Positions 5,795 to 64,000 of a stretch of 64,000 nucleotides of DNA are shown piece by piece. A program made the position numbers and the translations under genes. How positions within the stretch are numbered: position 1 is the stretch's first letter; each line of letters starts with the position of its first letter. The stretch comes from Candidatus Uhrbacteria bacterium (GTDB taxonomy: Bacteria; Patescibacteriota; Patescibacteriia; UBA9934; GWF2-40-263), in assembly GCA_023246355.1 (NCBI GenBank), contig JAHFIQ010000001.1, positions 286,247 to 350,246 of the forward strand. Direction: 5' to 3'. The notes below the pieces were generated by a model that saw nothing but the letters and a program-made list of their open reading frames with translations, did no database searches and was not told where the DNA came from.

Positions 5795-7621
5795 TCACTC
5801 AACCGTGACAGATTTAGCCAAGTTCCGAGGACGATCTGGATCAAGATTTCGAGCCAGTGCCATCTCATAGGCGAGCAATTGCATCGGAATGACCGTGAGC
5901 AGAGGTTGTAAACACTCCAGTGTCTGAGGAACCACGATCATATCCTCACACAGATGAGAAACAAGATCCGGATTGGTCGTGACCGCAATAATTTTTCCAC
6001 CGCGCGCTCTGAGCTCTTCCATGCTTGAACGCGTTTTTTCAAAAACCGAATCTTCGGGACACAGCACCACGCTGGGAAATGACTTGTCGATAAGCGCAAT
6101 GGGACCATGCTTCATCTCCCCACAGGAATACCCCTCTGCATGGACATAACTCACCTCTTTCATTTTAAGAGCACTCTCATAGGCAATGGGGGCTTGATAC
6201 TTGCGTCCTAAAAACAAGCAATTGGTCATGTCTTGATACGTGAGGGCGATGTCACGAATCGATGCACGGTTGTGAAGAATCGTCTCAACCTGATCAGGAA
6301 TTTCATACAGCGCGGCTAACACTTCTCCTGCAGCTCGTTCAGACAAGGTTCCACGAAGCTGGCCCAGGTAGACACTCATGAGCGTCAAAATCGTCAACTG
6401 AGACAAGAACGCTTTTGTGGAAGCTACACCAACCTCTGGACCCGCGTGATTGTAGACACCTGCATCTGTCTCACGAGCCACGGAGGATCCAACCACGTTT
6501 ACCAAACCCAGGGTGAGGGCGTGCTTGCGCTTTGCCTCACGGATGGCCTCCAGCGTGTCGGCGGTCTCACCCGATTGGGAAATTGCCAACACCGCGGTGC
6601 GAGTGGAAATGATCGGCTTGCGATAGCGAAACTCGCTTGCGAGCTCGACTTCCACAGGCATCCCCGCAAGCTCTTCAAACAAATATTCCCCAACAAGTCC
6701 GGCATAGTATGCGCTTCCACAACCAACGATAATCAGTCGATCAATTTCTTGAAGCCGGTCCTGTACCTCAGAAAGACCACCCAACACCGCACGTGTTCCA
6801 ATCAGATCAATTCTTCCACGCGTAGAATTTTCAATGACGTGCGGTTGCTCCAAAATTTCTTTCAGCATGAAATGTGCCTGCCCATTTTTCTTGGCGGCCT
6901 CCACTTCCCACATGAAACGCTCCACCTGCTTGTTCACAGGAGTTTGATCCAGATTCATGAGCCCCACCCCTTCGACGCTCACCGCGGCCAGCTCTCCGTC
7001 ATCCAAGAAAATCATGTCTCGCGTATACGGAAGGATCGCCGAAGGATCTGACGCGACATAGTGTTCCTGACTTCCCACACCAATGACAAGCGGAGACCCC
7101 ATCCGCGCCACAAACAACGTCTGTGGAAGATCTTTCATCATCACAAGAAGTCCGTAGGTTCCACGAACACGTTTCAACGCTCTGTGAATCGCGGTGAGCC
7201 CAGAGCCATGTTCACATTCAACTTCGATCAAGTGCGCCAAAACCTCTGAATCCGTCTGTGAGTCAAATGTATGACCCGCGGCTTTCAGCTCTTCGCGCAA
7301 CTCTTGATAATTTTCAATGATGCCATTGTGCACGATGGCCACAGACCCGTGACAGTCCAAATGAGGATGCGCATTCCCCTCATCGGGAATGCCATGGGTT
7401 GCCCAACGCGTGTGGCCAATTCCAGACGTCCCTTGAAGATTGTGTTGAGCCAACTGCTCTTTTAGCTTTCCGATGTTTCCTTGGGCGCGAACGCGGATGA
7501 GTCCCTCCTTTGAAACACACACACCCGCAGAATCATATCCGCGGTATTCCATATTTGTCAGACCTTCCATGAGCACAGGAAGCGCCTGTTTTTTTCCAAC
7601 GTAGCCGATAATTCCACACAT
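5795..7621 (-). CDS. glmS: glutamine--fructose-6-phosphate aminotransferase (isomerising)
   Basis: Starts MCGIIGYVGKK (N-terminal nucleophile Cys) and carries the GATase-2 domain plus two SIS domains (LVMMKDLPQ...; SGETADTLEA; ends ...NLAKSVTVE). The real start ATG is at 7619-7621. Confidence 0.95.
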   Translation of the reverse strand: MCGIIGYVGKKQALPVLMEGLTNMEYRGYDSAGVCVSKEGLIRVRAQGNIGKLKEQLAQHNLQGTSGIGHTRWATHGIPDEGNAHPHLDCHGSVAIVHNGIIENYQELREELKAAGHTFDSQTDSEVLAHLIEVECEHGSGLTAIHRALKRVRGTYGLLVMMKDLPQTLFVARMGSPLVIGVGSQEHYVASDPSAILPYTRDMIFLDDGELAAVSVEGVGLMNLDQTPVNKQVERFMWEVEAAKKNGQAHFMLKEILEQPHVIENSTRGRIDLIGTRAVLGGLSEVQDRLQEIDRLIIVGCGSAYYAGLVGEYLFEELAGMPVEVELASEFRYRKPIISTRTAVLAISQSGETADTLEAIREAKRKHALTLGLVNVVGSSVARETDAGVYNHAGPEVGVASTKAFLSQLTILTLMSVYLGQLRGTLSERAAGEVLAALYEIPDQVETILHNRASIRDIALTYQDMTNCLFLGRKYQAPIAYESALKMKEVSYVHAEGYSCGEMKHGPIALIDKSFPSVVLCPEDSVFEKTRSSMEELRARGGKIIAVTTNPDLVSHLCEDMIVVPQTLECLQPLLTVIPMQLLAYEMALARNLDPDRPRNLAKSVTVE

Positions 7622-18407: not shown

Positions 18408-18650
18408 AATTAGAAATGGGATTTAAGAAGAAGAAAATCAGAAGTGATAGTAAGGGCTGTGCATGGCGGGGATAAGTTAAATTTCGTTTTTGTTTCTGCC
18501 TTGATTCTTACGATCGTTTTGTGGATGGATGAGAGGATGAACCAAGGAGAGGACAGGGGAAGAATTTTTAAAGAAGGTTCCATCAAGTTTCATCCACATG
18601 TTTTTGCAGACGGTTATGAACTCGTCATCCACCCGTTTACAAGCTGTGGA
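18408..18650. promoter_or_regulatory. probable oriC: DnaA-box cluster in the dnaA-dnaN spacer
   Basis: DnaA-box-like 9-mers are TTGTGGATG (18529-18537), TCATCCACA (18590-18598), TCATCCACC (18626-18634) and TGTGGATTA (18646-18654). An AT-richer stretch lies at 18408-18470. This is the classical dnaA-dnaN position. Confidence 0.5.
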
Positions 18651-20048
18651 TTAGAGCGCGTATAACTTCTGCTTAATCAGTTCCAAATCATGTTGAAGCT
18701 TTTCATCTTCGAGCAAACAGCCACTAATTTTATCGTAGGCATGCATGGCCGTGGTGTGGTCGCGACCACCCAACTCTGACCCAATGGATGGATAACTCGA
18801 CTTCATTTCCTCCCGCATGAGGTACATGACAATCTGGCGTGGGAATGCCAGACGCTTTTGGCGGCTTTTTCCAAGGAGATCATCAAGGTGGACATCAAAG
18901 TAAAGGGCAACCGTATGGATGAGCTGTTTTGGGGTAACGCTTTTGCGACTAGAGATGGGTTGGAAACTGGTGAGGATGGGTTTGACGGTTTCAATGGAAG
19001 GCTTGGCGTTCTTAAACTGATGAAAGGCGATGATTTTGTTGAGCGCACCCTCAAGCTCTCGGACATTTGTCTGTACGACCGTTGCGACATGATGGAGGAT
19101 TTCACGCTCAAGCTGGTAGGCTTTTTCTCGGCACTTGGTTTCCAAAATCGCCACGCGTGTTTCAAAGTCAGGGGAACCAACATCTGCCAACATGCCGCAT
19201 TCAAATCGAGAAATAAGGCGGTCTTCCAGACCTGAAATGGCTTTTGGCGGTCGGTCAGAGGAAAGGACGATCTGTCGATTGTTCTGGTGGAGTTGATTGA
19301 ACGTGTGGAAAAATTCTTCCTGGGTTTCTTCTTTTCCACCTAGAAATTGAATGTCGTCGATTAACAGAACGTCCACGGTGCGGTAACGATTTTTGAATTC
19401 GACCATCCGGTTTGAGCGTAGGGCGCCAATAAAATCGTTTGTAAAGCGCTCGCTGGTCACGTAAAGGATTTTGAGCTGTGGGTTCTTGCGCAAGAGCTCG
19501 TTTCCAATCGCTTGAAGCAGGTGGGTTTTGCCCAGTCCTACCCCACCGTAAATGTAGAGCGGGTTGTAGACGCCGCCCGGTTGGTTTGAGACGGCTTGAG
19601 AAGCAGCGTGAGCGAGTTCATTTTGTTTTCCAACAATGAATGTTTCGAAACAATACTTCCCGTTTAATGAAAATTCACCGGTACGCACTTCTTGTTGCGG
19701 TTGCGGTTGGTGAGCGGGTTGAAAGTGGGTGTGCATTTCAGGGGTTGGTGCGCGAGTGATCTCTTTTTCAAAAAGAGGGATGTCACGAGGGGTTGTTGGT
19801 CTGTTTTCGACACGGTAACTAAGCTGTTTGATCACTCCGTTGCTGTGTTCCTGCAAGGATCGCATAATTTCACGGGCGTATTTTTTTTCAAGCCAGGCTT
19901 TGGTGAACATGTTTGGGACACCAATGATAACCGCATGTGAATCGACTTCTGAAATAAAAGTGCTTTTAAACCAAGTAGTAAAGTTTGCTTTACTTAAGCC
20001 CAATTCGAGCTCACCTAGCACAGCTTGCCAAAGGTCATTGGTGTTCAT
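18651..20048 (-). CDS. dnaA: chromosomal replication initiator protein DnaA
   Basis: 465 aa. AAA+ Walker A GGVGLGKTHLL, sensor/box motifs, and a C-terminal DNA-binding domain (...DHTTAMHAYDKI). Confidence 0.95.
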   Translation of the reverse strand: MNTNDLWQAVLGELELGLSKANFTTWFKSTFISEVDSHAVIIGVPNMFTKAWLEKKYAREIMRSLQEHSNGVIKQLSYRVENRPTTPRDIPLFEKEITRAPTPEMHTHFQPAHQPQPQQEVRTGEFSLNGKYCFETFIVGKQNELAHAASQAVSNQPGGVYNPLYIYGGVGLGKTHLLQAIGNELLRKNPQLKILYVTSERFTNDFIGALRSNRMVEFKNRYRTVDVLLIDDIQFLGGKEETQEEFFHTFNQLHQNNRQIVLSSDRPPKAISGLEDRLISRFECGMLADVGSPDFETRVAILETKCREKAYQLEREILHHVATVVQTNVRELEGALNKIIAFHQFKNAKPSIETVKPILTSFQPISSRKSVTPKQLIHTVALYFDVHLDDLLGKSRQKRLAFPRQIVMYLMREEMKSSYPSIGSELGGRDHTTAMHAYDKISGCLLEDEKLQHDLELIKQKLYAL

Positions 20049-20204: not shown

Positions 20205-20354
20205 ATGCCAAAGCGAACGTATCAACCCAAAAAACGTCAGCGATCAAAAGTCCATGGCTTTCGGGCTCGCATGAAGAGTTCCACTGGACGAGATGTTCTC
20301 AAGCGACGTCGTGCTCGAGGACGCAAACGACTGACCGTCAAAACAAGCAAGTAG
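20205..20354 (+). CDS. rpmH: 50S ribosomal protein L34
   Basis: [49 protein letters not shown], a near-universal L34 sequence. ATG at 20205. Confidence 0.95.
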
Positions 20355-20363
20355 ACAAAGGCT

Positions 20364-20702
20364 ATGCTCCCAGAGCTCCACAGACTACGACACGAAAAAG
20401 ATATGAAAACGCTCTTTGCCCGTGGCAGGAGCGTTTTTGGGTCGCTGGTTGGTATGAAAATGTGTCCAAATGGTCTTCCTGTCTCACGATTTGCCGTGGT
20501 CGTTGGTGTGAAAACAGCCAAAAGCGCTGTTGATCGTAATCGGATCAAACGCCGTGTCCGCTCGATTGTTCAGACACATATTTCACGGGTGAAAGGCGGT
20601 TTTGATGTCTGTCTTTTGCCAAGAAAAGAGGCTTTAACAGCCAAACATAAAGACGTAGAAGCCTCTCTCATGGCTAGTTTCAAGAAAGGCAAGCTTTTAT
20701 GA
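20364..20702 (+). CDS. rnpA: ribonuclease P protein component
   Basis: 112 aa, LPELHRLRHEKDMKTLFARGRS...RNRIKRRVRSIV, a basic RnpA pattern, directly after rpmH. Confidence 0.9.
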   Translation: MLPELHRLRHEKDMKTLFARGRSVFGSLVGMKMCPNGLPVSRFAVVVGVKTAKSAVDRNRIKRRVRSIVQTHISRVKGGFDVCLLPRKEALTAKHKDVEASLMASFKKGKLL

Positions 20703-20950
20703 AATGGGTTTTGATGGGAATTATTCGTGGGTATCAAATGACCCTCTCTCCTGACCATGGGCTCATTAAACCCTTATTTCCTGAAGGTTTTTGCCGTTTT
20801 TATCCAAGTTGTTCGGAGTACGGGCATGATTCGATCGGCCGTTTCGGAGCTGGAAAAGGCCTGGTTCTCACGTTTTTGCGTATTTTGAGGTGCAATCCGT
20901 TCTCCTTGGGTGGTACAGACCCGGTTCCTACCAAAAAACACCAGGTTTAG
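20699..20950 (+). CDS. yidD: membrane protein insertion efficiency factor YidD
   Basis: 83 aa, YQMTLSPDHG...CRFYPSCSEYGHDSIGRFGAGKGLVLTFLRILRCNPFSLGGTDPVP, the canonical YidD sequence. Overlaps rnpA by 4 nt. Confidence 0.9.
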   Translation: MKWVLMGIIRGYQMTLSPDHGLIKPLFPEGFCRFYPSCSEYGHDSIGRFGAGKGLVLTFLRILRCNPFSLGGTDPVPTKKHQV

Positions 20951-35053: not shown

Positions 35054-35539
35054 TCAGGGCTGGCAAGCGAGAGCGGAACAGCCTTCTCCCTCCGGGTCGG
35101 ACCAGCTGCTGACGTCCCAGGTCTCACCCGACCAGTTGAGGTAGGTCTCTGTGATGAGATCGGCGTTGTACGACGTGTTGTCGTTGCCTTCGCACAGGTA
35201 GCGGCCATCCCGGTAGTTCACGTTCCACCGGATACACTCGATGTTGTCAACCACGACGTTGTAGCCATGGTCATCGAGTGTGTCCTGGAGATCTTCGGGA
35301 GTGGTATTGAGCTGAACCACGTCGGGGCAGTCGAGCGTGAGGTGCCAGCCGAGCTGACCGACCTGGTCTTCTCGTTCCGAGAACTCGACGGTGAGGCTTG
35401 CGCTCTGGTCGCGATCCTCGGCAACCAGCAGGATCCACTCATCAGTGCAGTCTGCACAATCGTTGCCGTTGTCATCGCCTTCGTCGGTTTGAAATCCGAC
35501 ACAGCCTGTCATCGTGACCGAAATCAGCATGAACCGCAT
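35054..35539 (-). CDS. hypothetical acidic lipoprotein
   Basis: 161 aa. Signal peptide MRFMLISVTMTGC has a lipobox-like TMTGC. D/E-rich, multiple Cys. Confidence 0.5.
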   Translation of the reverse strand: MRFMLISVTMTGCVGFQTDEGDDNGNDCADCTDEWILLVAEDRDQSASLTVEFSEREDQVGQLGWHLTLDCPDVVQLNTTPEDLQDTLDDHGYNVVVDNIECIRWNVNYRDGRYLCEGNDNTSYNADLITETYLNWSGETWDVSSWSDPEGEGCSALACQP

Positions 35540-35803
35540 GTGCTCTCCTTGGGTTGCGGGTTGACTGAGAAGGCAAAGTTAAGTGAGATAAGAGGAAAAG
35601 TCAAGAGGAAGGCAGTAGGGGTGACATATTTTCCCTCGTATTTCGTGACGATCGAAAACAAGATGAGACGATGTTGACGATCGCAAAAAAAGTTTTTTCT
35701 TTTTGCGATCGCAAAAATAAATCTCTCCCTTTTTCGATCGTCGTTTGTTTTGAGCAAAAAAAAGACCACCATACTCCTCTCTACACAAATTCTGTCACGT
35801 CAT

Positions 35804-36253
35804 TCAAACCAAGAAAACATTCACCCACTTGGTTAACCCAAGTTCTTCAACCAAAGACTGCATCAATTCACTTACATCGTTCTTCGTTGTCCAGACACTT
35901 CGTTGTGCCATCGTAAATCCAGCTTTTTTCAAAAAGTTTCTCAGTTTGTTTCGAAGATGTCTTACGTCCTCAGGGATATCAAAACTCACGATGGTCGTGC
36001 GACCGTCAGGATGCTCCCGTTTCACTAACAGGATTTTCTCCCGAGTGAGTCTTGCCTGTCCTTTGCTGCTTAGTTTCAGTTCTGCGCCATAGCTGGTTTC
36101 ATAAATATCAGAACACCCCTCTTCCAAGAGTTGAATTTGGCGTTTGAGTTGTTCTACATACGCTGTTCGTCTCCAGCTATCAGGTGCAACTTGGTTGAAA
36201 TGTCGCTGAGCATTGTGGAGCTTTTTTGTTGTCGGAATATGCATGTTATCCAT
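35804..36253 (-). CDS. hypothetical protein, translationally coupled to comM; C-terminal half has a Cas2/VapD-like beta-alpha-beta pattern (weak)
   Basis: 149 aa. TIVSFDIPEDVRHLRNKLRNFLKKAGFTMAQRSVWT resembles the Cas2 core (v.sYDv...rrrkl.k.L..yG.rvQ.SVf). Overlaps the comM stop by 8 nt. No CRISPR array anywhere in the window. Confidence 0.35.
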   Translation of the reverse strand: MDNMHIPTTKKLHNAQRHFNQVAPDSWRRTAYVEQLKRQIQLLEEGCSDIYETSYGAELKLSSKGQARLTREKILLVKREHPDGRTTIVSFDIPEDVRHLRNKLRNFLKKAGFTMAQRSVWTTKNDVSELMQSLVEELGLTKWVNVFLV

Positions 36254-37769
36254 AATTTTGAATAGTATCTTGTCCTCGATACTGCAGAGCCTCAGCCATG
36301 TGCTCGACCTGGATCACCTCCGACTGAGCCAGGTCTGCAATCGTTCGAGCGACTTTTCTGACACGTGTGTACCCACGAGCCGAGAGGTGATTTCCGCGTA
36401 GAGCCTGTTCCAACAACAAGCGTGTTTCATCTGTGAGTGGTGCATACTCATCAAGGTCAGATGAACGGATTTCGTTATTGGTGAGCACATGTAAACTCTT
36501 CAATCTTTTTTGTTGTGTTGTTCTTGCTGTTTCGATCCGAGTGCGGATGATCGACGAGGATTCAGGTTTTTCCTGTGAGAGCAACTTGTCGTATTCTACA
36601 GCCGGAACCTCAATGACAATATCAAATCGATCAAGCAGGGGACCGGAAATTTTTTTCTGATACCTCATGACCGATTCGTGAGAGCATGTGCAGGGTCGGT
36701 AGGGATTGGTGAGATGTCCACACGGACAGGGATTCATCGCGGCAACAAGTAAGAATCTCGCGGGAAATTGAAACGAACCTATAGCACGGGAAATCGTTAC
36801 AGATCCATCTTCTAGCGGCTGGCGCAAATGTTCCAAAACGTAGCGTGAAAATTCTGGGAGCTCATCGAGAAACAACACCCCTCGATGTGCGAGCGAAACC
36901 TCTCCGGGTTTTGGCCATGCTCCCCCTCCTACCAACGAGACAGCTGACGAACTATGGTGCGGAGCACGAAAAGGACGATCTTGCACAAGTCCTTGAGATG
37001 AAGGAAGGATTCCGGAAACGGACGCGATCGCTGTGACCTCCACAGCTTCGTCGTATGTGAGCGTTGGCAAAATAGAGGGAATGGATCTGGCCAGAAGCGT
37101 TTTTCCAGCGCCGGGTGGACCCTTGAGAAGAATATTGTGTCCACCTGCGGCAGCTATTTCTAAACCTCGTTTTGCGGCTTCCTGACCTTTGATACCTGAA
37201 AAGTCTTGATCAAAGTGAGAGGCGATCATTGACTTCTTTTTTTGAATTTTTTCAATCAAGTGAACTCCCTTTAGGTGATCCAGAACGTCTTTGAGCGATC
37301 CGACGCCATAGACATGAAGGCCCTGAATCGCGCAGGCCTCGGCTGTGTTTTCTTGCGGAACAAATAACTCATCTTTTGAAATAGATTTTGCCATGATGGC
37401 TGTTGTAAGCACACCTGAAACAGGCCGCACGGTCCCATCAAGCGCAAGCTCTCCAACGAAAACAGCTTTTTCAATAGCTGCTCTTGGAATCTCACCCATC
37501 GCGACCAGCATGGACAAGGCAATGGGCAAATCATAAAGGGGACCCTGCTTGCGCACATCCGCCGGAGCGAGGTTGACCGTGATTTTTCCTCGTGGAAATT
37601 TGAAGCCGCTATTTTTTATGGCAGCGCGAATGCGATCTCGAGACTCCTTGACCGAAGCATCGGGGAGACCAACGACGCAAAACGATTTAAGACCCAAAGA
37701 AATGTCTGTTTCGACGGTGACCGGTACGCTTTTGATCCCGATCGTCGCACTCGTAGTAATGTGAAACAT
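36246..37769 (-). CDS. comM: YifB/ComM family Mg-chelatase-like AAA+ ATPase
   Basis: 507 aa. N-terminal Lon-like domain (PVTVETDISLGLKSFCVVGLPDASVKESRDRIRAAIKNSGFKFPRGKITVNLAPA), Walker A GPPGAGKT, and a C-terminal Mg chelatase-like region. Confidence 0.9.
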   Translation of the reverse strand: MFHITTSATIGIKSVPVTVETDISLGLKSFCVVGLPDASVKESRDRIRAAIKNSGFKFPRGKITVNLAPADVRKQGPLYDLPIALSMLVAMGEIPRAAIEKAVFVGELALDGTVRPVSGVLTTAIMAKSISKDELFVPQENTAEACAIQGLHVYGVGSLKDVLDHLKGVHLIEKIQKKKSMIASHFDQDFSGIKGQEAAKRGLEIAAAGGHNILLKGPPGAGKTLLARSIPSILPTLTYDEAVEVTAIASVSGILPSSQGLVQDRPFRAPHHSSSAVSLVGGGAWPKPGEVSLAHRGVLFLDELPEFSRYVLEHLRQPLEDGSVTISRAIGSFQFPARFLLVAAMNPCPCGHLTNPYRPCTCSHESVMRYQKKISGPLLDRFDIVIEVPAVEYDKLLSQEKPESSSIIRTRIETARTTQQKRLKSLHVLTNNEIRSSDLDEYAPLTDETRLLLEQALRGNHLSARGYTRVRKVARTIADLAQSEVIQVEHMAEALQYRGQDTIQNYG

Positions 37770-37822
37770 AAAACCCCAAAAACGATTAACGTTGGTGGGG
37801 TTTCTTATGCTGCTACTCTACC

Positions 37823-38284
37823 TCATCGGTGATTTTCTGTCAATTTTTTTCTCTGTGAAGTGACAAGAAGGAGAAAAACACCGAGGACAATAATCGCATC
37901 AGAGAGATTGATCGCTGAGCGACCAAACAAAATGATGTAGTCAACGGTAAAACCGTAGGTCACACGATCATACAAGTTGCCCAAGGCACCGGTCATGATC
38001 ATGAGGGTTGCAAAGGTGATTCCTGGTCGGTCGCTCCAGTGTTTATATGCCACTTTGACGAGTCCAAGGCCAATGCCGATTGAGATCAAGATCACCCATC
38101 CGAGCTTGAAAGGAATATCAAAAGCGATACCAAAGTTTTTATGAATGGCAAAGTCGACAATTCCAGGATGAATAAGACTCCCTTCCTGAGGGAGTCGGGT
38201 GAGTCCAATTCTTTTCAGCCACTCATCACACAGCACGATCAAAACGGTTGGAATGAGGAGCCAGTAGAGATGCTTGGTGAGCAT
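37823..38284 (-). CDS. lspA: lipoprotein signal peptidase II
   Basis: HKNFGIAFDIP is NxGxAF-like. FTVDYIILFGRSAINLSDAIIVLG contains the catalytic Asp region. 4 TM. Start chosen at MLTKHLYW; the ORF track extends to 38326 into dksA. Confidence 0.8.
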   Translation of the reverse strand: MLTKHLYWLLIPTVLIVLCDEWLKRIGLTRLPQEGSLIHPGIVDFAIHKNFGIAFDIPFKLGWVILISIGIGLGLVKVAYKHWSDRPGITFATLMIMTGALGNLYDRVTYGFTVDYIILFGRSAINLSDAIIVLGVFLLLVTSQRKKLTENHR

Positions 38285-38286
38285 GT

Positions 38287-38661
38287 TCACACTTCCTGAG
38301 TGAGCGTTTTTTTGCATTGTATGCATGAACTGGAAGTAGGACGCGCGATCAGTCGGCGTTCATCGATCATTTGCCCGCAGTACTTACAGGTGCCGTACTT
38401 GCCTTGGTCCATGAGTTTGAGAGCCGATTCCACATCACGGAGTGCTTTTTCCAATTCGTCCTCAAGCGAGAGATTATCTGAAAATTGTGCAACTTCTGAG
38501 GCGTTTTCGTCTTCCTTATCACCTATATTTGGAAAATCAGCCTGAAAATCAGCCTCTGTTGCCTTTGAATTTCGATGCGAAAAACGAGAAAGTTCCATTT
38601 CAAGACGTGTCTTTTCTCGTTCGAGCTCACTTTTGATGCGGTCCATGAATTCTGATCCCAT
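38287..38661 (-). CDS. DksA/TraR-family C4 zinc-finger protein
   Basis: 124 aa. Coiled-coil N-terminus and GTCKYCGQMIDERRLIARPTSSSCIQCK, a C4 zinc finger of DksA/TraR type. Confidence 0.8.
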   Translation of the reverse strand: MGSEFMDRIKSELEREKTRLEMELSRFSHRNSKATEADFQADFPNIGDKEDENASEVAQFSDNLSLEDELEKALRDVESALKLMDQGKYGTCKYCGQMIDERRLIARPTSSSCIQCKKTLTQEV

Positions 38662-39219
38662 AAAAACATCGTTAATTCATCAATACTCTGAATTCTAGCA
38701 GCTTTTTGGAAATTAGAATAGGGCCGCAGCCCGCTATGTTGTATAGATTTTTCGGGGTGTGGCCCTTCGTTGTGGTTTTGTTTGCGGATTTGTTGAGGCG
38801 TTGGGTTTTATTCTGGAATTTTCTTCAGAACAAGACTCAACGCCCTTCCAAACACAGTCAAACAAAGCCATAGTACTCTTCCGTCTTACCATTCTTTGGT
38901 TTTGCTCACGAACGTCCCGAAGGACGCAATAGTGTGGGCGAACCTAGAAGATTTCGCTTTTGTTTTTGTTTTGCGGTTCAGAATAGTGAGACGGTAAGAC
39001 GTTTCCCGAAATATTCGTGCGGGCGTGGGGCACCTGCCGACAAGCTGTCGAATACGACTTTCGGAAAACCTCCCAAGAGTTGGTGTGAAAGAACGACTTA
39101 CATTTGTATGATATCAAAAAAATGACCATCGGTCAATTTATCAAAAGTTGCTTACATCAGCATAAATTTTCATAGACCGAAGACAAATCGTATTCAATAG
39201 AAGTTCTTTTATGAGAAAG

Positions 39220-39259
39220 TTATCCACAGAATAGAGCAGTTACTCATAACTTATCCACA
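39220..39259. promoter_or_regulatory. two perfect DnaA boxes (TTATCCACA) 31 nt apart in a 600-nt non-coding region
   Basis: ttatccaca at 39220-39228 and at 39251-39259, both in the same orientation, in the AT-rich distal part of the 38662-39260 intergenic region. Confidence 0.55.
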
Positions 39260-39260
39260 G

Positions 39261-40499
39261 CTAGGTTGAGCAAAAGTGTGCCGTGCTTGAATACCGATTC
39301 ATCTCAATCGATATCTCTGAAAATTGAGAGAAAATCTTTGTCATCAAGAATAAGGTTGGACTATATACCTGTCTATTCATTTGTTTCAGGATAGGTCCTG
39401 GCTCAATGTCTAAAACGTTCCCATGGCATGCCGATTCTAAGCTCGTTTCAGAAAGCTTCGTGATCAAATCCTCGCTTGTTGAAAAGATCACTTGATGATC
39501 AAAAAAGGCTCCATAAATGGAATGATGAGACGCAACGACCCGAAAGGCCTCAATTTGCCCTAGTTGCACCTGTTCAACCGTTTGAAAAGACGGATCAACC
39601 AGAATCTCTTTGAGACTCGTCCCGTCTTTGAGTTCAGTTTCCTTTAAGGTTGGAGAAAGATAGGCTCCCATCAGCTGTAGGAGACCCAAAAGGTCTTCTT
39701 GAGTTGTATCTGCTTGTGGTGCTTTTACTAACAAGGCTGGAGAGCCGAGCTCATCTTGTGCAACAACAATCTCCCATTCCTGACCAAAGATCTGTTCAAA
39801 TGCATCTGTTCCTTCGCCCAAAGGAGGTGATAATTCACTTCCGTGTCCTGAAAGTGCCAACAGCGTCTGTGAGAGCAGGTCTTTTTTCACGGTTTGTTTT
39901 TTTTGACTGGGAAAAATCATTTCAAGTTGTCCATTGCTTGCAAGGATCGAACCGGACAGATGGTCGACTGGGAGGTCTATTCTTCCCAACCAGTCGCTTG
40001 TCAGTGAAGGAAAGAAGGGAGCGTGAGTGCTTGAATTCATTCCACTGATCGGAAGTAATGTTTGCGAGAGAAGAAGAATATCTGGGGTCACCTCTTGGAC
40101 CGTGATCGCAAGGGACGTCAGGAGTTCTTGTGGTAGTTCAGCTCTGTTTGCTCGAATACCAACAGCTTTCTCTCCGGTGCTGGTGAGAAAAAAGGCTAGT
40201 TCTCCGTGAGTGAGAGACGCGATATCTTGAAAATCTAAACTCCTGTTTGAAAGAAGAGGTACTCCTTCGAGGAAATTTTTTACAATCGGGAGAGATGTTC
40301 CTGTCAGTTTAAGATTCACTGCCAGGATCGTTCCTTCAGGTGCGGCCTCAAGGATTTGGTCGCGAGAAAACCAGACCTCACCAATGCGCCAGGTCACAAA
40401 GACAAGCACAAGAGCAGAACCTCCCAGAAGCCAAACAACCTGGCGCAAAGGCCTGGTTGTTTTTGTGTGTCGAGAGAGTGGAATGTTGAGCTTCTTCAT
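39261..40499 (-). CDS. hypothetical membrane-anchored protein
   Basis: 412 aa. N-terminal signal-anchor VVWLLGGSALVLVFVTW, then a Leu/Ser-rich soluble domain. No family recognised. Confidence 0.5.
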   Translation of the reverse strand: MKKLNIPLSRHTKTTRPLRQVVWLLGGSALVLVFVTWRIGEVWFSRDQILEAAPEGTILAVNLKLTGTSLPIVKNFLEGVPLLSNRSLDFQDIASLTHGELAFFLTSTGEKAVGIRANRAELPQELLTSLAITVQEVTPDILLLSQTLLPISGMNSSTHAPFFPSLTSDWLGRIDLPVDHLSGSILASNGQLEMIFPSQKKQTVKKDLLSQTLLALSGHGSELSPPLGEGTDAFEQIFGQEWEIVVAQDELGSPALLVKAPQADTTQEDLLGLLQLMGAYLSPTLKETELKDGTSLKEILVDPSFQTVEQVQLGQIEAFRVVASHHSIYGAFFDHQVIFSTSEDLITKLSETSLESACHGNVLDIEPGPILKQMNRQVYSPTLFLMTKIFSQFSEISIEMNRYSSTAHFCST

Positions 40500-40502
40500 G
40501 GC

Positions 40503-42722
40503 TTATGGTCGGCGACGTGGGAATCCACCACGACCGCCTCCACCATTTGATCGTACAGGACGTGGCGGTGGAAGATCACCTGGCGCTCGAGGAGCTGGAC
40601 GTTCAGGATAGACGTTTCCAGGAGCATCTTTCATGGAAAGGCTTGTGCGTCCGTCGGCTCCCATCTCCATAATTTTTACTTGGACTTCTTGACCCAACTT
40701 TACAATATCAGAGACAAGCTCGACTCGCCATGGGGCCAACATACTGACATGCACCATCCCATCTCGCTTAGGGAGATATTCAACGATCGCCCCGAAATCC
40801 ATGATGCGCACGACTTTCCCTGTGTACACTTCTCCAACTTTTGGCTCTCGAGTCAGATTCTGAACCCAGGCGAGCGCTTTTTGGGCACCCTCGGCATTGG
40901 TTGAGGTAATCATCACCAAACCATCGTCTTCAATATCAATCGCCTGGACCCCTGTGGTCGCAATAATTTCATTGATCGTTTTGCCGCCAGGACCAATGAC
41001 GTTCCCGATAAGCTCTGGGTTGATACGCAGCGTGATGATGCGCGGAGCATAGGGAGAGAGCTCGGGTCGTGGGGCAGCAATTGCTAATGCCATCGCCTTC
41101 AAGATTTCCATTCGGGCGTCTTTTGCTTGTTTGAGAGTCGTTTCCACGATCTCAGGCAGAAGACCATCTGTTTTTGTATCCATCTGGATCGCGGTAATGC
41201 CGCGCGCAGAGCCAGCGATTTTGAAATCCATGCCGCCCTTGCCATCCTCCAAATCTTGAAGGTCGGTTATCACTTTCCACTTGCCTGAAGCATCCGTGGC
41301 AAGTCCCATGGCGATCCCGGCAACCGGCGCTTTGATTGGGACGCCAGCGTCCATCAGTGCCAGAGTTGATCCACAGGTGGAACCCATGGAGCTTGAACCA
41401 TTAGACCCAAGAACCTCAGAAACAGCGCGGATGGTATAAGGAAAAGCTTCCTTATCAGGCATCATCGGCATCAGGGCTTTTTCCGCGAGACCACCATGAC
41501 CGATGTCTCGGCGCGAAGGTCCTCGTAGTGGCTTCACTTCCCCAACAGAAAAGGGCGGGAAATTGTAGTGATGAAAGTAGCGGCGAGTCCCAACCGTTTC
41601 CATGCCATCGAGCGTTTGTTCGTCTCCTGGCGCACCAAGCGTGACCACGGTTAAGACCTGTGTCTCGCCACGTTTGAAATGACCAGATCCGTGTACACGA
41701 GGTAAAACAGCAACTTCATTTACCAGAGGTCGGATTTGGGTCATGGATCGACCATCAACGCGTTTTTCATTTTCCAGGATCTCACGAGATACTTCTTCTT
41801 CCAGCACAGAGCTCACGATACTGGTACCAAAGGAGAGAAGTACTTCCTCAACTCCTTGTTCGATGAGATAGGCCTTCGTAAGTTTTTTCAGCTCGGCCTT
41901 CTGTGCACTACGTTCACTCTTGCTAGCTTGTGGCATTCCAAAAAAAAGCTCGGCCACTTTTTTGACAATGAACGGCTTCGCCAGAGCTTCTACTTTTTCT
42001 TGCGCTTCGGTTTTTTTAATGCTTGGATCGATTTTTTCTTTTCCCACAGCGGCACGGACTTCCTCGATCAGCTTGATCGGCTCAGCCAAGTGCTTTTGTC
42101 CAAACCGGAAGGCTTCCAAGACGACTTCCTCAGGCGCTTCGTTGGCTCCGGCTTCGACCATGATGATTTTTTTCGGTGTGCCTGCAAAGGAAAGATCGAG
42201 CAAAGACTTTTCACGAGCGGCATAGGTTGGATTCAAAACCCACTCACCGTTTACCTGTCCCACACGCACACAACCAATAGGCCCATTCCAAGGAATGTTG
42301 CTGGTATGCAGTGCGCAGGAAGCGGCAATCAGCCCAATCACGTCAGGATCGTTTTCTGTGTCAAAGGAAAGCGCTGTGACGATGATCTGAATGTCATTGC
42401 GGATGCGCTCATCAAAGAGTGGACGAAGAGCACGGTCAATAAATCGAGAGATGAGAACAGCCTCGTCTGTTGGACGGCCTTCTTTTTTGATGAATCGGCT
42501 GCCCTTGATGCGGCCAGCGGCGTACATCTTCTCTTCGTAATCCACCATCAACGGAAAAAAATCCAGCCCTTCGCGTTTATCAGGGCTGATCGTTGCGGTT
42601 GCGAGTACCACCGTTTCGCCGTACTGAACCAAACAAGATCCACTTGCTTGGGCCGCGTATTTTCCCACTTCAATCGTGAGCTTTTTTCCTCCCCAGAGGG
42701 TTTCAAATCGTTGTTCGTTCAT
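40503..42722 (-). CDS. pnp: polynucleotide phosphorylase with C-terminal Gly/Arg-rich tail
   Basis: 739 aa. Two RNase PH domains, KH and S1 (…VYTGKVVRIMDFGAIVEYLPKRDGMVHVS…). The C-terminus ends GGGGRGGFPRRRP. Confidence 0.95.
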   Translation of the reverse strand: MNEQRFETLWGGKKLTIEVGKYAAQASGSCLVQYGETVVLATATISPDKREGLDFFPLMVDYEEKMYAAGRIKGSRFIKKEGRPTDEAVLISRFIDRALRPLFDERIRNDIQIIVTALSFDTENDPDVIGLIAASCALHTSNIPWNGPIGCVRVGQVNGEWVLNPTYAAREKSLLDLSFAGTPKKIIMVEAGANEAPEEVVLEAFRFGQKHLAEPIKLIEEVRAAVGKEKIDPSIKKTEAQEKVEALAKPFIVKKVAELFFGMPQASKSERSAQKAELKKLTKAYLIEQGVEEVLLSFGTSIVSSVLEEEVSREILENEKRVDGRSMTQIRPLVNEVAVLPRVHGSGHFKRGETQVLTVVTLGAPGDEQTLDGMETVGTRRYFHHYNFPPFSVGEVKPLRGPSRRDIGHGGLAEKALMPMMPDKEAFPYTIRAVSEVLGSNGSSSMGSTCGSTLALMDAGVPIKAPVAGIAMGLATDASGKWKVITDLQDLEDGKGGMDFKIAGSARGITAIQMDTKTDGLLPEIVETTLKQAKDARMEILKAMALAIAAPRPELSPYAPRIITLRINPELIGNVIGPGGKTINEIIATTGVQAIDIEDDGLVMITSTNAEGAQKALAWVQNLTREPKVGEVYTGKVVRIMDFGAIVEYLPKRDGMVHVSMLAPWRVELVSDIVKLGQEVQVKIMEMGADGRTSLSMKDAPGNVYPERPAPRAPGDLPPPRPVRSNGGGGRGGFPRRRP

Positions 42723-42727
42723 ATCAT

Positions 42728-43405
42728 TTAGAATTCGAGTCGTCGTGTCCGATGCTCTTCTTGATTATTCGTTGCTTCCTCAGGCAGGTCCATGAAGAAT
42801 CCCGTATCAGACTCTTCCGGATCTTCACCTTCAGAGGTGGCCGTGTCTTCGCTATCCTTTGCGTGTGCTCTGTCTGCGAGCTTTGGACCGATGAGATACC
42901 GTTTTTTATTTTGAGAGAGGTCGGTGTAGTCATGGACGACTTTTTGCAAAGCCGAGGATGTTGTTTCACCAAACGCCATGAGCTCCACCATGCGTCCTTT
43001 AGCCAGGACGTAATTCACAAGTGGTTGAAAGTCGCCGTCTCCTGAGACGATTACGACCACGTCCAGTGTATCGAGCATTTGCACAACATCGATCGCGAGT
43101 CCCACATCCCAGTCGGCTTTCTTGTGGCCAGAGGAAAATTCTTGCAAAGGTTTTTCACGCGTTTCAATGCCAGCGCTTCTCAGAGCCTCGAAAAACGGTT
43201 GCTCTTCTTTGCTCTCCGTCCCAACGACGTAGGCCATGGCACGGATGAGTTTGCGTGAAGCGACCGCGTCGTCCACGATATTTTTAAAGTTCACCTTTCG
43301 CTTAAAGAGATTCCGCGCCGAGTAGTACATGTTCTGTGTGTCGATGAAAACCCCGACACGCTGATCCGGATGCTTAAACATAGGGACAGGTTTATAAAGG
43401 AACAC
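42728..43405 (-). CDS. NYN-domain (LabA-like) predicted RNase
   Basis: 225 aa, VGVFIDTQNMYY...KKADWDVGLAIDVVQMLDTLDVVVIVSGDGDFQPLV gives the NYN/PIN-like Asp constellation, with an acidic C-terminal tail. Possible later start at 43381. Confidence 0.7.
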   Translation of the reverse strand: MFLYKPVPMFKHPDQRVGVFIDTQNMYYSARNLFKRKVNFKNIVDDAVASRKLIRAMAYVVGTESKEEQPFFEALRSAGIETREKPLQEFSSGHKKADWDVGLAIDVVQMLDTLDVVVIVSGDGDFQPLVNYVLAKGRMVELMAFGETTSSALQKVVHDYTDLSQNKKRYLIGPKLADRAHAKDSEDTATSEGEDPEESDTGFFMDLPEEATNNQEEHRTRRLEF

Positions 43406-62486: not shown

Positions 62487-63146
62487 ATGGCGATTTCTAA
62501 TCCAGGCTTCCTGCTAGATCTTGACGGGCTGCTGATCAATTCTGAGAGTCTATCTGAAATTGCATTTGAGAAGATGTGCAAAAAATTAGGCTGCGAGTTC
62601 ACCCAGGATTATCATGCCAGTATTCGTGGAACGAAAAAGGAGCTATGGTCTGCCGGCCTTGTGAAAGAGTTTAGTTTAGAGGTTAGTTCGCAGGAGGTCG
62701 CTAAGCTTCACGATGCTCTGTTGCTAAGTGAGATGGATCATTCGGTCAATCTAATGCCAGGTGCAATCGAACTACTGGATTGGATCGATTTTAGGGGATA
62801 TCCAAAAGCGCTTGTGACAAGCTCGGATTCGGTTTACGCGAAGCGATATCTTGAAAAGCTCGGTCTTCTAGAGAGATTTATGATCTTCGTCACAAGTGAA
62901 GACGTTAAAAATGGAAAGCCAGATCCCGAGCCCTATCAGATTGGTGCGCAACGGCTGGAACGAGTGCCTAGTAATTGCATTGTCTTTGAGGATTCTGTAA
63001 ACGGAGCGCTATCGGGCAAGTCATCAGGAGCAACGGTTGTAGCAGTGCCTTCAAGTCCATCAGACAAGGAACGTATGTCTGTTGCCGACTATGTGTTATC
63101 TTCATTACTTGAATCCATTTCAGTGCTTGAAAATTTGGGCCTGTAG
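62487..63146 (+). CDS. HAD-IA family hydrolase (beta-phosphoglucomutase-like)
   Basis: Motif I FLLDLDGLLINSE, motif II VTSS, motif III K...GKPDPEPY, motif IV FEDSVNG. Confidence 0.8.
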   Translation: MAISNPGFLLDLDGLLINSESLSEIAFEKMCKKLGCEFTQDYHASIRGTKKELWSAGLVKEFSLEVSSQEVAKLHDALLLSEMDHSVNLMPGAIELLDWIDFRGYPKALVTSSDSVYAKRYLEKLGLLERFMIFVTSEDVKNGKPDPEPYQIGAQRLERVPSNCIVFEDSVNGALSGKSSGATVVAVPSSPSDKERMSVADYVLSSLLESISVLENLGL

Positions 63147-63212
63147 CTCATTTGGTAGAGCGTCGCATTCGCATTGCGAAGGTAAGGGGTTCGATTCCCC
63201 TCAGGTCCACCA
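63137..63212 (+). tRNA. tRNA-Ala (CGC) with G3:U70, CCA encoded; 5' end overlaps the HAD gene stop by 10 nt
   Basis: GGGCCTG TA GCTC ATTTGGTA GAGC G TCGCA TTCGCAT TGCGA AGGTA AGGGG TTCGATT CCCCT CAGGTCC A CCA. Confidence 0.85.
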
Positions 63213-63232
63213 ACAATAATACCCAGGTATCT
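63192..63232 (+). repeat. direct repeat copy 1 (41 nt, includes the last 21 nt of tRNA-Ala) - putative attL
   Basis: cgattcccctcaggtccaccaacaataatacccag(g)tatctg; the stretch identical to 63371-63411 runs 63192-63225 (34/34), then 6/7 matches over 63226-63232. Confidence 0.6.
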
Positions 63233-63246
63233 GGGTATTATTGTTG
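63211..63246. other. 36-nt perfect palindrome CAACAATAATACCCAG-gtat-CTGGGTATTATTGTTG starting in the tRNA-Ala CCA
   Basis: 16 bp perfect stem. Confidence 0.6.
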
Positions 63247-63370
63247 GGGAGAGCACAGGCCATTGAGGCCTGTGCGTGGGGAATCGAACGCCGGAGCCAT
63301 GTCCCGCCACAAGGCGGGACGGCGAGGCGGTGGCCAGACCTCGGCGAGCTGGCGAGCCGAGAGTCGCGGC

Positions 63371-63411
63371 CGATTCCCCTCAGGTCCACCAACAATAATA
63401 CCCAGATATCT
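63371..63411 (+). repeat. direct repeat copy 2 (putative attR), followed by terminator
   Basis: cgattcccctcaggtccaccaacaataatacccag(a)tatctg. The intervening 138 nt (63233-63370) are roughly 70% GC. Confidence 0.6.
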
Positions 63412-63416
63412 GCCCA

Positions 63417-63521: not shown

Positions 63522-63530
63522 TGTGGATAA
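63522..63530. promoter_or_regulatory. perfect DnaA box TGTGGATAA upstream of the last gene's promoter
   Basis: Exact 9-mer, about 100 nt upstream of the -35 element. Confidence 0.4.
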
Positions 63531-63672: not shown

Positions 63673-64000
63673 ATGACTAAGCATCATCTGCTCATCGCCT
63701 TTGCTCTTGTGGGGATTTTTGTATATCAGAATGTTGCTCTGGCACAAATGTCCTCCTCGAGCTACCTGATCCGGTGGGATTCTGTGAACACCGGTGGTTC
63801 AGATACGGGTAGCTCGTCCAGTTACCAACTGCGCGACACGGTTGAGTCAGTCGTGGCAGGACGTACATCAAGTTCGTCCTACAACTTAGACCAGGGCTAC
63901 CGTGGCGGAGTTTTCGATCAGGTACTCTCCTTTGATGTGCGGGCTCAGAATTATTCCAGCGTCGTTTCAGCAACAGCTCTTTCATCTCTCACCGTGACCG
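63673..64000 (+). CDS. secreted Ser/Gly-rich hypothetical protein, 5' part only (continues beyond window end)
   Basis: MTKHHLLIAFALVGIFVYQNVALAQ signal peptide, then MSSSSYLIRWDSVNTGGSDTGSSSSYQLRDTVESVVAGRTSSSSYNLDQGYRGG with repeated SSSSY..L..G units. No stop before the window end. Confidence 0.5.
   Translation, partial: MTKHHLLIAFALVGIFVYQNVALAQMSSSSYLIRWDSVNTGGSDTGSSSSYQLRDTVESVVAGRTSSSSYNLDQGYRGGVFDQVLSFDVRAQNYSSVVSATALSSLTVT

What the first reader, a model, noticed from the sequence alone, without database searches (positions are those of the whole stretch)
38662..39260. 600-nt non-coding region with two perfect DnaA boxes far from dnaA
In an otherwise tightly packed genome this region has no ORF above 60 codons, and it contains several local hairpins. 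Its AT-rich distal 150 nt carry two exact TTATCCACA boxes 31 nt apart (39220-39228 and 39251-39259). It lies upstream of the dksA-lspA-comM operon on the minus strand and 19 kb from dnaA. It could encode a structured ncRNA. The stretch GUGAGACGGUAAGACG at 38987-39002 weakly resembles the RNase P RNA P10-12 consensus, but the P4 elements are not evident. It could also be a DnaA-regulated promoter or titration site, or even a second origin-like element.
Basis: seen in the sequence. Interest (0 to 1): 0.55.

Follow-up and report, generated by a model that had tools for sequence, protein, structure and literature searches.

The report
DnaA-box-flanked novel structured RNA gene
The "empty" 600-base gap holds a previously undescribed gene for a ~390-base folded RNA, found so far only in Uhrbacteria (tiny uncultured bacteria), with two invariant binding sites for the replication initiator DnaA at a fixed distance upstream, which hints that the RNA's production is tied to the replication machinery.

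Summary
Two exact TTATCCACA boxes sit at 39220 and 39251 in a strongly folding, non-coding 600-nt gap.

The window is from a Candidatus Uhrbacteria (CPR) genome. In all 29 related loci with enough upstream sequence, the same gap lies between the same genes (nyn-pnp-hyp412 | gap | dksA-lspA-comM). It contains, on the minus strand:
- two invariant DnaA boxes exactly 22 nt apart;
- an AT-rich spacer of fixed length;
- a near-consensus promoter (TTGACC-17-TGnTATCAT);
- a ~390-nt RNA ending in an intrinsic terminator;
- a separate extended -10 promoter for dksA.

The RNA fold has covariation support: 91 pairs, 48 with compensatory changes against 24±3 in shuffles. It matches no Rfam family. It is not RNase P RNA or tmRNA, and it encodes no conserved ORF.

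The real origin is the dnaA-dnaN spacer at about 18.5 kb. It has tandem boxes, DnaA-trio-like repeats and the GC-skew minimum, so "second origin" is rejected.

Best reading: a new lineage-specific structured RNA gene whose promoter is coupled to high-affinity DnaA sites. The RNA's function is unknown. DnaA binding and transcription are inferred, not shown.

The parts
39251..39259 (+). DnaA box 1 (TTATCCACA on +; TGTGGATAA in the RNA's orientation), 1 nt after the stop codon of the hyp412 gene
   Evidence: Exact consensus. Invariant in 29/29 loci.
39240..39248 (-). Weak third DnaA-box-like 9-mer (TATGAGTAA), same orientation, 2 bp after box 1
   Evidence: At most 3 mismatches to TGTGGATAA at this offset in 22 of 24 unique sequences. 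Binding is inferred.
39220..39228 (+). DnaA box 2, exactly 22 nt from box 1
   Evidence: The distance from box 2 to the -35 is 91-92 bp in 22/24, 94 bp in one and 72 bp in one.
39137..39219 (.). AT-rich spacer of fixed length (71% AT here). It contains the conserved TGAAYAC motif (39190-39197) and a covarying palindrome CTWAnnnTWAG (39151-39160).
   Evidence: Alignments; AT content and length. Function unknown.
39108..39136 (-). Promoter of the RNA: -35 TTGACC (39136-39131), 17-bp spacer, TG (39116-39115), -10 TATCAT (39113-39108)
   Evidence: 10/12 match with TG. The pattern TTGAC[CAT]-17-TGn-TAnnnT is present in all 24 unique sequences.
38708..39101 (-). About 390-nt structured non-coding RNA (predicted start near 39101; 3' end after the terminator U-run)
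   Evidence: Conserved in every locus that includes this stretch, one copy each. 91 pairs, 48 with compensatory changes. 259 G-U cells against 58 A-C cells favour this strand. The ends are inferred from the promoter and terminator, not mapped.
39082..39094 (-). Conserved single-stranded 5' motif GUUCUUUCACACC
   Evidence: Nearly invariant. It does not covary with any partner.
38995..39079 (-). H1 5' strand (39079-39076) and helix H2 (39075-39061 with 39009-38995). H2 encloses a small junction with two hairpins, one carrying the conserved loop CCCCAC (39037-39019).
   Evidence: Compensatory replacement in L023 (GAGAUC/GAUCUC) and L025.
38876..38994 (-). Helix H4 (38994-38980 with 38895-38881) encloses the conserved single strand AAAACAAAAACAAAAGCGAA (about 38974-38951) and helix H5 GGUUCGCCC/GGGUAAAACC (38944-38934 with 38909-38898). 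The H1 3' strand is at 38879-38876.
   Evidence: This is the most conserved part of the RNA, kept even in the most distant homologue, L023.
38788..38853 (-). 3' domain: H7 (38853-38850 with 38791-38788) and the long hairpin H8 (38845-38824 with 38817-38796), with an invariant GAG/CCC internal motif
   Evidence: 15 of 19 pairs in H8 show compensatory changes.
38708..38766 (-). Intrinsic terminator: stem AGGGCC/GGCCCU (38766-38761 with 38725-38720), then a U-rich tail. The loop is expanded here. Relatives have GGGGCC-UUCG-GGCCCC followed by a U-run.
38692..38700 (-). Extended -10 promoter (TGCTAGAAT) of the dksA-lspA-comM operon, about 30 nt before the dksA ATG (38661)
   Evidence: TGnTAnnnT is conserved at this position in nearly all aligned sequences. 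Inferred.

Best explanation
The gap is a compact, conserved module read on the minus strand. It has two high-affinity DnaA boxes (plus a weak one), an AT-rich spacer of fixed length, a strong sigma-70-type promoter, a stand-alone gene for a ~390-nt highly structured RNA, an intrinsic terminator, and a separate promoter for dksA. The RNA has a three-way-junction core (H1/H2/H4), a conserved A-rich single strand and a 3' hairpin domain. It belongs to no described family. It most likely acts in trans as a stable RNA, for example as a protein-binding scaffold or regulator. DnaA bound to the boxes, always on the same face of the helix relative to the -35 element, most likely modulates transcription from this promoter. 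That would tie the RNA's level to the amount or state of the replication initiator, and the site lies 11-19 kb from oriC. Shown: sequence conservation, geometry, covariation, strand, lack of coding potential and absence from Rfam. Inferred: transcription, DnaA binding, the direction of regulation and the RNA's function.
For: Synteny and gap length (564-634 nt from box 1 to dksA) are conserved while the flanking hyp412 protein falls to 28-59% identity. Both boxes are exact with a 22-nt spacer in 29/29 loci. The box-to-promoter distance is 91-92 bp in 22/24 unique sequences; the one large deviation is -20 bp, about two helical turns. The promoter consensus is present in 24/24. The RNA fold has 91.2% of cells paired and 48 pairs with double changes against 24.2±3.0 in shuffles (0/500) and 13-23 in slid controls. 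Single-sequence MFE folds of homologues only about 50% identical (45-53%) give the same architecture with different helix sequences. G-U against A-C asymmetry is 259 to 58. There is one copy per locus and no conserved ORF. No Rfam family matches in the window or in divergent homologues. RNA-core nucleotide identity (74-81%) equals or exceeds that of pnp among closer relatives. The module and dnaA share a contig, in the same order and orientation, 11.3 kb apart in JANLHT010000024 and 18.2 kb apart here.
Against: There are no expression data and no DnaA-binding data. Boxes centred at about -122 and -153 are further upstream than in most characterised DnaA-controlled promoters. The fixed spacing could instead reflect another factor binding the spacer. 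Nothing in the sequence reveals what the RNA does. The family was found only in Uhrbacteria and only in this one genomic context, so context gives little functional leverage. The terminator U-run in this window is interrupted, so some read-through into dksA is possible.
Confidence: 0.6

Rival explanations
1. The boxes are mainly an origin-proximal DnaA titration or inactivation site, like B. subtilis DnaA-box clusters or E. coli datA. They would damp re-initiation after being replicated early. The RNA gene would simply be a neighbour, or would help through transcription-driven supercoiling.
For: These are the strongest boxes in the window, since the oriC boxes themselves are imperfect. The site is 11-19 kb from oriC in two genomes, and DksA and DnaA homologues share contig lengths in about 10 more assemblies. 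A weak adjacent box 2 bp away resembles cooperative arrays.
Against: There are only 2-3 boxes, far fewer than in known titration loci. A pure titration site would not need a fixed, helically phased distance to the -35 element.
Confidence: 0.2
2. DnaA bound to the boxes acts as a roadblock or insulator that stops transcription coming from the pnp-hyp412 operon before it enters the RNA gene.
For: Box 1 starts 1-2 nt after the hyp412 stop codon in the aligned genomes. No conserved intrinsic terminator follows hyp412: the TGACC/GGTCA hairpin is not conserved. Established knowledge: DnaA-box complexes can block RNA polymerase in E. coli (asnC/mioC).
Against: This does not explain the fixed distance to the -35. 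Orientation dependence cannot be tested here.
Confidence: 0.1
3. The RNA is a cis-acting leader (riboswitch-like attenuator) of dksA-lspA-comM rather than an independent gene.
For: It is always directly upstream of dksA and ends in a terminator. The terminator is imperfect in this window.
Against: A conserved extended -10 (TGnTAnnnT) lies between the terminator and dksA. About 390 nt with a three-way junction and a 3' domain is much larger than known attenuators. No alternative anti-terminator pairing is conserved. No riboswitch family matches.
Confidence: 0.08
4. It is a highly diverged housekeeping RNA (RNase P RNA, tmRNA, SRP or 6S) that the models miss. CPR RNase P RNAs are known to be diverged (PMC8172020).
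For: The size, strong promoter, single copy and high conservation fit a housekeeping RNA. rnpA is present at 20364-20702, so an RNase P RNA must exist somewhere in the genome.
Against: No RF00010/RF00011, tmRNA, SRP or 6S match appears at E<=10 in three diverged members. ARAGORN finds no tmRNA. The GGGAAAC stretch that looks like CR-I is a helix strand that is replaced in L023 and L025. There is no P4 pseudoknot and no tRNA-like ends. Frame-shifting indels occur in the A-rich stretch. The family was found only in Uhrbacteria.
Confidence: 0.03
5. It is a second replication origin or origin-like unwinding element.
For: Two perfect boxes lie next to an AT-rich stretch.
Against: The skew minimum is at 16.4-16.8 kb, with no local minimum at 39 kb. 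The dnaA-dnaN spacer has the canonical tandem boxes, CCC, TTA/CTA trio-like repeats and an AT-rich block, conserved in 5 genomes. The 39-kb module has no trios and no GC cluster, and its AT-rich part ends in a promoter.
Confidence: 0.02

Closest known systems
Large, complex-folded bacterial ncRNAs of unknown function (raiA motif RNA, OLE, ROOL, GOLLD, HEARO)
   Same: It is several hundred nucleotides long with a multi-helix fold supported by covariation and long invariant single-stranded stretches. It has its own promoter and terminator, a narrow phylogenetic range and no known function.
   Different: There is no sequence or structure match to any of them in Rfam 15. It is restricted to CPR Uhrbacteria. 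It is always preceded by DnaA boxes, which to my knowledge is not reported for those classes.
DnaA-controlled promoters (dnaA, nrdAB, sda)
   Same: Consensus DnaA boxes lie upstream of a sigma-70-type promoter, with a weak box next to a strong one.
   Different: The product is a non-coding RNA. The boxes are 90-130 bp upstream of the -35 rather than overlapping or abutting it. Regulation is untested.
DnaA-box clusters outside oriC (B. subtilis oriC-proximal DBCs; E. coli datA and DARS)
   Same: These are high-affinity boxes outside the origin but close to it (11-19 kb), conserved across species.
   Different: There are only 2-3 boxes, no identifiable IHF-type site, and tight geometric coupling to a promoter.
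Bacterial oriC basal unwinding system (tandem DnaA boxes, GC cluster, DnaA-trios, AT-rich DUE)
   Same: Two same-orientation DnaA boxes lie near AT-rich DNA.
   Different: The boxes are 22 bp apart rather than adjacent. There are no trios and no GC cluster. The genuine system sits in the dnaA-dnaN spacer of the same window.
Bacterial RNase P RNA (type A/B)
   Same: Similar length, single copy, strong conservation and a GGUAAGA-containing stretch.
   Different: There is no covariance-model hit, no CR-I/CR-V, no P4, and a different junction topology.

Membership tests
Bacterial RNase P RNA (RF00010/RF00011) | Match to the covariance model | tested here: not met
   No hit at the gathering score or at E<=10 with permissive filters, in the window or in diverged homologues L025 and L023.
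Bacterial RNase P RNA (RF00010/RF00011) | Conserved CR-I (GAGGAAAGUCC) and CR-V (ACAGAAnnCGGCUUA) forming the P4 pseudoknot | tested here: not met
   Neither motif is conserved in the 21-sequence alignment. The GGGAAACGUC stretch pairs in H2 and is replaced in L023 and L025.
tmRNA | tRNA-like acceptor/T-arm ends and an in-frame tag ORF | tested here: not met
   ARAGORN finds no tmRNA. Rfam gives no hit. The distance from GCA to the loop UAG is 27 or 28 nt in close relatives, so no reading frame is kept.
Chromosomal replication origin (oriC) | Strand-composition (GC/keto) skew switch | tested here: not met
   The cumulative skew minimum is at 16.4-16.8 kb, with none at 39 kb.
Chromosomal replication origin (oriC) | Adjacent DnaA boxes followed by a GC cluster, DnaA-trios and an AT-rich DUE | tested here: not met
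   Absent at 39 kb. Present and conserved in the dnaA-dnaN spacer.
Functional DnaA box | Match to TTATCCACA, conserved across species, in a genome with a canonical DnaA domain IV | tested here: met
   Exact in 29/29 loci. DnaA has Bac_DnaA_C at 1.5e-25.
Functional DnaA box | Physical binding by DnaA | not testable with these tools
   Needs EMSA, footprinting or ChIP.
Independent structured ncRNA gene | Secondary structure maintained by compensatory substitutions | tested here: met
   48 of 91 pairs have double changes against 24±3 in shuffles (0/500), and 91% of cells are paired against 35-50% in slid controls.
Independent structured ncRNA gene | Own promoter and terminator; no conserved ORF | tested here: met
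   Promoter in 24/24 sequences. Terminator. ORFs vary in position and length.
Independent structured ncRNA gene | A discrete transcript is detected | not testable with these tools
   No expression data are available here.
DnaA titration / inactivation locus (datA, DBC type) | Cluster of many boxes (and a bending-protein site) that alters DnaA availability | tested here: inconclusive
   There are only 2 strong boxes and 1 weak box. The origin-proximal position is conserved in 2 genomes. The effect on DnaA is untestable here.

The most novel reading that the evidence does not exclude
The RNA is the effector of a DnaA-gated circuit specific to these ultra-small bacteria. DnaA occupancy of the invariant boxes would set the level of a large structured RNA, probably the core of an unknown RNP. 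That RNA would feed back on replication initiation, transcription (its neighbour is the RNA-polymerase-binding DksA homologue) or growth. This would be a replication-coupled RNA regulator with no counterpart in model bacteria.
Probability: 0.15. Interest if true: 0.9.

Novelty: categorically new. Interest (0 to 1): 0.72.

Why it matters
New large, intricately folded bacterial RNAs are rare, and several known ones have turned out to be ribozymes or RNP cores. None has been described for the Candidate Phyla Radiation, whose ~1-Mb genomes leave little room for dispensable DNA. Here 600 nt are kept almost base for base. The strongest DnaA sites in the region are locked at a fixed distance from the RNA's promoter. 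This gives a concrete, testable link between the replication initiator and a non-coding RNA. It also offers a handle (DnaA, the boxes, the RNA) on cell-cycle control in organisms that cannot yet be cultured. If only the modest reading is true, it still adds a new RNA family and a defined oriC to the annotation of Uhrbacteria.

Tried and rejected
- **RNase P, tmRNA, SRP, 6S and riboswitches.** Rfam at the gathering score and at E<=10 on the window and two diverged homologues, plus ARAGORN, gave only weak miRNA-type or chance hits.
- **Small protein or tmRNA-like tag in the A-rich stretch.** Frames differ (27 or 28 nt) and ORFs are not conserved.
- **Second origin.** Rejected by the skew and by finding the real origin architecture in the dnaA-dnaN spacer.
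- **RNA-oriC complementarity.** The 10-mer AAACAAAAAC occurs only in the RNA and in the window's oriC, but it is absent from the oriC of four relatives, so it is coincidence.
It is not conserved in L025 or L023. The covarying pairing is H2 plus H4 instead.
- **Pairing of the conserved 5' GUUCUUU with AAAGAAU.** The partner column varies (A/U) without any change in the 5' motif.
- **Targets of the 5' motif within the window.** Only chance-level matches.
- **Phage origin.** No match in IMG/VR.
- **Second copies.** None.
- **Function of the upstream hyp412 protein.** No Pfam or NCBIfam family. The AlphaFold model (pLDDT 70) has no significant PDB fold match.
- **Literature.** No description was found of a Uhrbacteria or CPR RNA of this kind, or of a DnaA-box-flanked ncRNA.
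- **Limits.** The distribution beyond Uhrbacteria, and outside this synteny, could therefore not be probed with a covariance model.

Full report
**1. The observation**

- The two exact TTATCCACA boxes are at 39220-39228 and 39251-39259. The only other exact box in the 64 kb is at 63522. About 0.27 are expected by chance, and no shuffle reached three.
- The gap 38662-39260 lies between a 124-aa TraR/DksA zinc-finger gene (38287-38661, -) and a 412-aa gene with no known family (39261-40499, -). lspA and comM lie downstream; PNPase and a NYN-domain gene lie upstream.
- The gap folds far better than shuffled sequence on both strands (z -5.6 and -5.9).
- Two mechanical ORFs of 61 and 63 aa exist. 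They are not conserved.
- dnaA (18651-20048) is 19 kb away.

**2. Source and the real origin**

- Homologues of the flanking proteins are annotated as Candidatus Uhrbacteria or Patescibacteria.
- Cumulative GC and keto skews have a clean minimum at 16.4-16.8 kb and none at 39 kb.
- The locus has the order rpmH-rnpA-yidD | dnaA | dnaN.
- The 243-bp dnaA-dnaN spacer carries several imperfect boxes.
- Aligned with four other Uhrbacteria, this spacer shows tandem boxes (TTATCCCC, CATCCACA), a CCC cluster, a TTA/CTA three-base periodic run and an AT-rich block just before dnaN. From established knowledge, this is the layout of the bacterial basal unwinding system.
- oriC is therefore at about 18.4-18.65 kb. 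The 39-kb site is not an origin.

**3. Comparative genomics**

- A profile of the hyp412 protein retrieved 9 genome loci.
- A DNA pattern from the gap retrieved 13 metagenome loci.
- Look-ups of DksA and hyp412 homologues added 8 more.
- All show nyn-pnp-hyp412 | gap | dksA-lspA-comM, with 564-634 nt between box 1 and dksA. hyp412 itself drops to 28-59% identity.
- Every locus with enough upstream sequence (29/29) has two exact TGTGGATAA boxes with a 22-nt spacer, starting 1-2 nt after the hyp412 stop.

**4. Anatomy, read on the window's minus strand**

- (a) Box 1, a weak box-like 9-mer 2 bp further on (at most 3 mismatches in 22/24 sequences), and box 2.
- (b) An 83-bp spacer that is 63-82% AT. 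Its sequence drifts but its length does not. The distance from box 2 to the -35 is 91-92 bp in 22 of 24 unique sequences, 94 bp in one and 72 bp in one, which is two helical turns less. It contains a TGAAYAC motif and a palindrome CTWAnnnTWAG whose halves covary.
- (c) A promoter of the form TTGAC[CAT]-17 bp-TGn-TAnnnT in all 24 sequences. Here it is TTGACC/TGATATCAT at 39136-39108.
- (d) A conserved transcript-like block from about 39101.
- (e) A terminator, GGGCC...GGCCC plus a U-run. Several relatives have a textbook GGGGCC-UUCG-GGCCCC-UCUUCUUUUUUU.
- (f) A conserved TGnTAnnnT extended -10 (38700-38692) about 30 nt before the dksA start.

**5. The RNA**

- RNAalifold on 9 sequences, and then on 21, gives the same helices.
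- On the 21-sequence alignment, a 91-pair structure has 91.2% of cells paired. 48 pairs have changes on both sides, against 24.2±3.0 in column shuffles (0/500) and 13-23 when partners are slid by 1-3 columns.
- The core is a three-way junction:
  - H1 is CUCU/AGAG.
  - H2 is UGGGAGGUUUUCCGA/UCGGGAAACGUCUUA. It encloses two small hairpins, one with the conserved loop CCCCAC.
  - H4 is CCGUC..ACUAUUCU/AGAAUGGUAAGACGG. It encloses the nearly invariant single strand AAAACAAAAACAAAAGCGAA and helix H5 (GGUUCGCCC/GGGUAAAACC).
- A 3' domain (H7/H8) follows. 15 of the 19 pairs in H8 covary.
- Homologues only about 50% identical (45-53%) in the core (L025, L027, L029) and the most distant one (L023) fold on their own into the same architecture with different helix sequences. 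Examples are H1 CAAC/GUUG or CAACUC/GAGUUG, and H2 GAGAUC/GAUCUC.
- G-U cells outnumber A-C cells 259 to 58. Pairing falls from 91% to 80% on the opposite strand. Together with the promoter and terminator, this fixes the strand as minus.
- There is one copy per locus.
- There is no conserved ORF, and indels of 1-2 nt occur inside conserved blocks.

**6. What it is not**

- No Rfam 15 family reaches even E<=10, apart from chance miRNA-like hairpin matches. This holds in the window and in two diverged homologues. ARAGORN finds no tmRNA.
- CPR RNase P RNAs are known to be diverged but remain detectable with RF00010 at lowered thresholds (PMC8172020). This RNA lacks CR-I, CR-V and P4.
- The RNase-P-like words GGGAAACGUC and GGUAAGACG are strands of covarying helices, and they are replaced in distant members.

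**7. The DnaA boxes**

- They are the best DnaA sites in the window, since the origin's own boxes are imperfect.
- They are invariant and are locked in phase with the promoter.
- In a second genome (JANLHT010000024) dksA lies 11.3 kb before dnaA on the same strand. Here the distance is 18.2 kb, in the same order and orientation.
- Relative to oriC, the whole nyn...comM block is transcribed head-on to the replication fork. This is inferred.

**8. Mechanism**

- Most likely (about 0.6): an independent, strongly transcribed structured RNA whose promoter activity is modulated by DnaA held at the upstream boxes. The phase-locked spacing, and a single 20-bp deletion variant, argue for a physical relation between box-bound DnaA and the promoter.
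- Rivals:
  - an origin-proximal titration site (0.2);
  - a DnaA roadblock ending the pnp-hyp412 transcript (0.1);
  - a cis-acting leader of dksA (0.08);
  - a diverged housekeeping RNA (0.03);
  - an origin-like element (0.02).
- The first three roles are not mutually exclusive.
- The RNA's own function is unknown. Its invariant single strands and internal loops suggest protein binding or tertiary contacts.

**9. Comparison and novelty**

- As an RNA it resembles the "large ornate" bacterial ncRNAs in kind, but it is not a member of any described family.
- As a DnaA site it resembles DnaA-regulated promoters and oriC-proximal box clusters. It differs in the number of boxes, their distance from the promoter and the nature of the product.
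- I found no description of it in the searchable literature.

**10. Limits**

- Transcription, RNA ends, DnaA binding and regulation are all inferred.
- The family was seen only in Uhrbacteria and only in this context. This is partly because the search patterns were derived from it and the collection scans were capped.

Noticed in passing
window 18408-18650 (dnaA-dnaN spacer); L031-L034: This is the likely true oriC. It has several imperfect DnaA boxes, then tandem TTATCCCC/CATGCACA boxes, CCC, a TTACTATCACT run with 3-nt TTA/CTA periodicity, and an AT-rich block before the dnaN ATG. The layout is conserved in four other Uhrbacteria, and the GC/keto skew minimum is 1.6-2 kb away.
   Followed up: partly
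window 20207-20950 (+): rpmH (L34), rnpA (RNase P protein, 112 aa) and yidD lie divergent from dnaA. The genome therefore needs an RNase P RNA, but none is detected anywhere in this 64-kb window.
   Followed up: partly
window 63137-63412: The last 21 nt of tRNA-Ala(CGC) plus the 21 nt downstream (42 nt in all) are repeated 179 nt further on (63192-63233 and 63371-63412, 98% identical). A T-arm-like GGGGAATCGAACGCC lies on the opposite strand between the copies. This looks like the scar of an insertion into the tRNA gene or a degenerate second tRNA.
   Followed up: partly
window 63522-63530 (-): The third exact DnaA box of the window (aTGTGGATAAg), with a weaker GCGTGGACA 13 nt before it. It sits in the AT-rich spacer upstream of a + strand gene that starts near 63674.
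   Followed up: no
L024 3898-3948; L025 3395-3435: Some relatives carry extra boxes. L024 has a third perfect box in inverted orientation directly after box 2 (TGTGGATAAACTTATCCACA). L025 has TTATCCACC inside the 22-nt spacer.
   Followed up: partly
L002 about 7461-7498 (also L012); L011: Lineage-specific insertions occur in the RNA: a 38-nt extra hairpin in the small H3a stem-loop, and a variable 30-nt expansion of the terminator loop. The expansion is present in the window and absent in L006, L007, L009, L010, L013 and L014.
   Followed up: no
window 39261-40499 (-): The 412-aa protein upstream of the module is confined to Uhrbacteria. It has an N-terminal helix (residues 18-52) and mixed alpha/beta domains. 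It matches no Pfam or NCBIfam family and has no significant PDB fold match (pLDDT 70).
   Followed up: yes
window 35804-36253 (-): A 149-aa protein with a Cas2/PaaX-middle-domain fold (TIGR01573 at 1.5e-09) lies next to comM. I saw no CRISPR array or other cas genes nearby.
   Followed up: no
window 35054-43405: The whole nyn-pnp-hyp412-RNA-dksA-lspA-comM block is on the minus strand. Given oriC at about 18.5 kb, it is transcribed head-on to the replication fork, including the presumably highly expressed RNA gene.
   Followed up: no
L025 6555-7157: In one relative, an IS200/IS605-type Y1 transposase gene sits just after comM, so this otherwise rigid synteny block can accept insertions there.
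   Followed up: no
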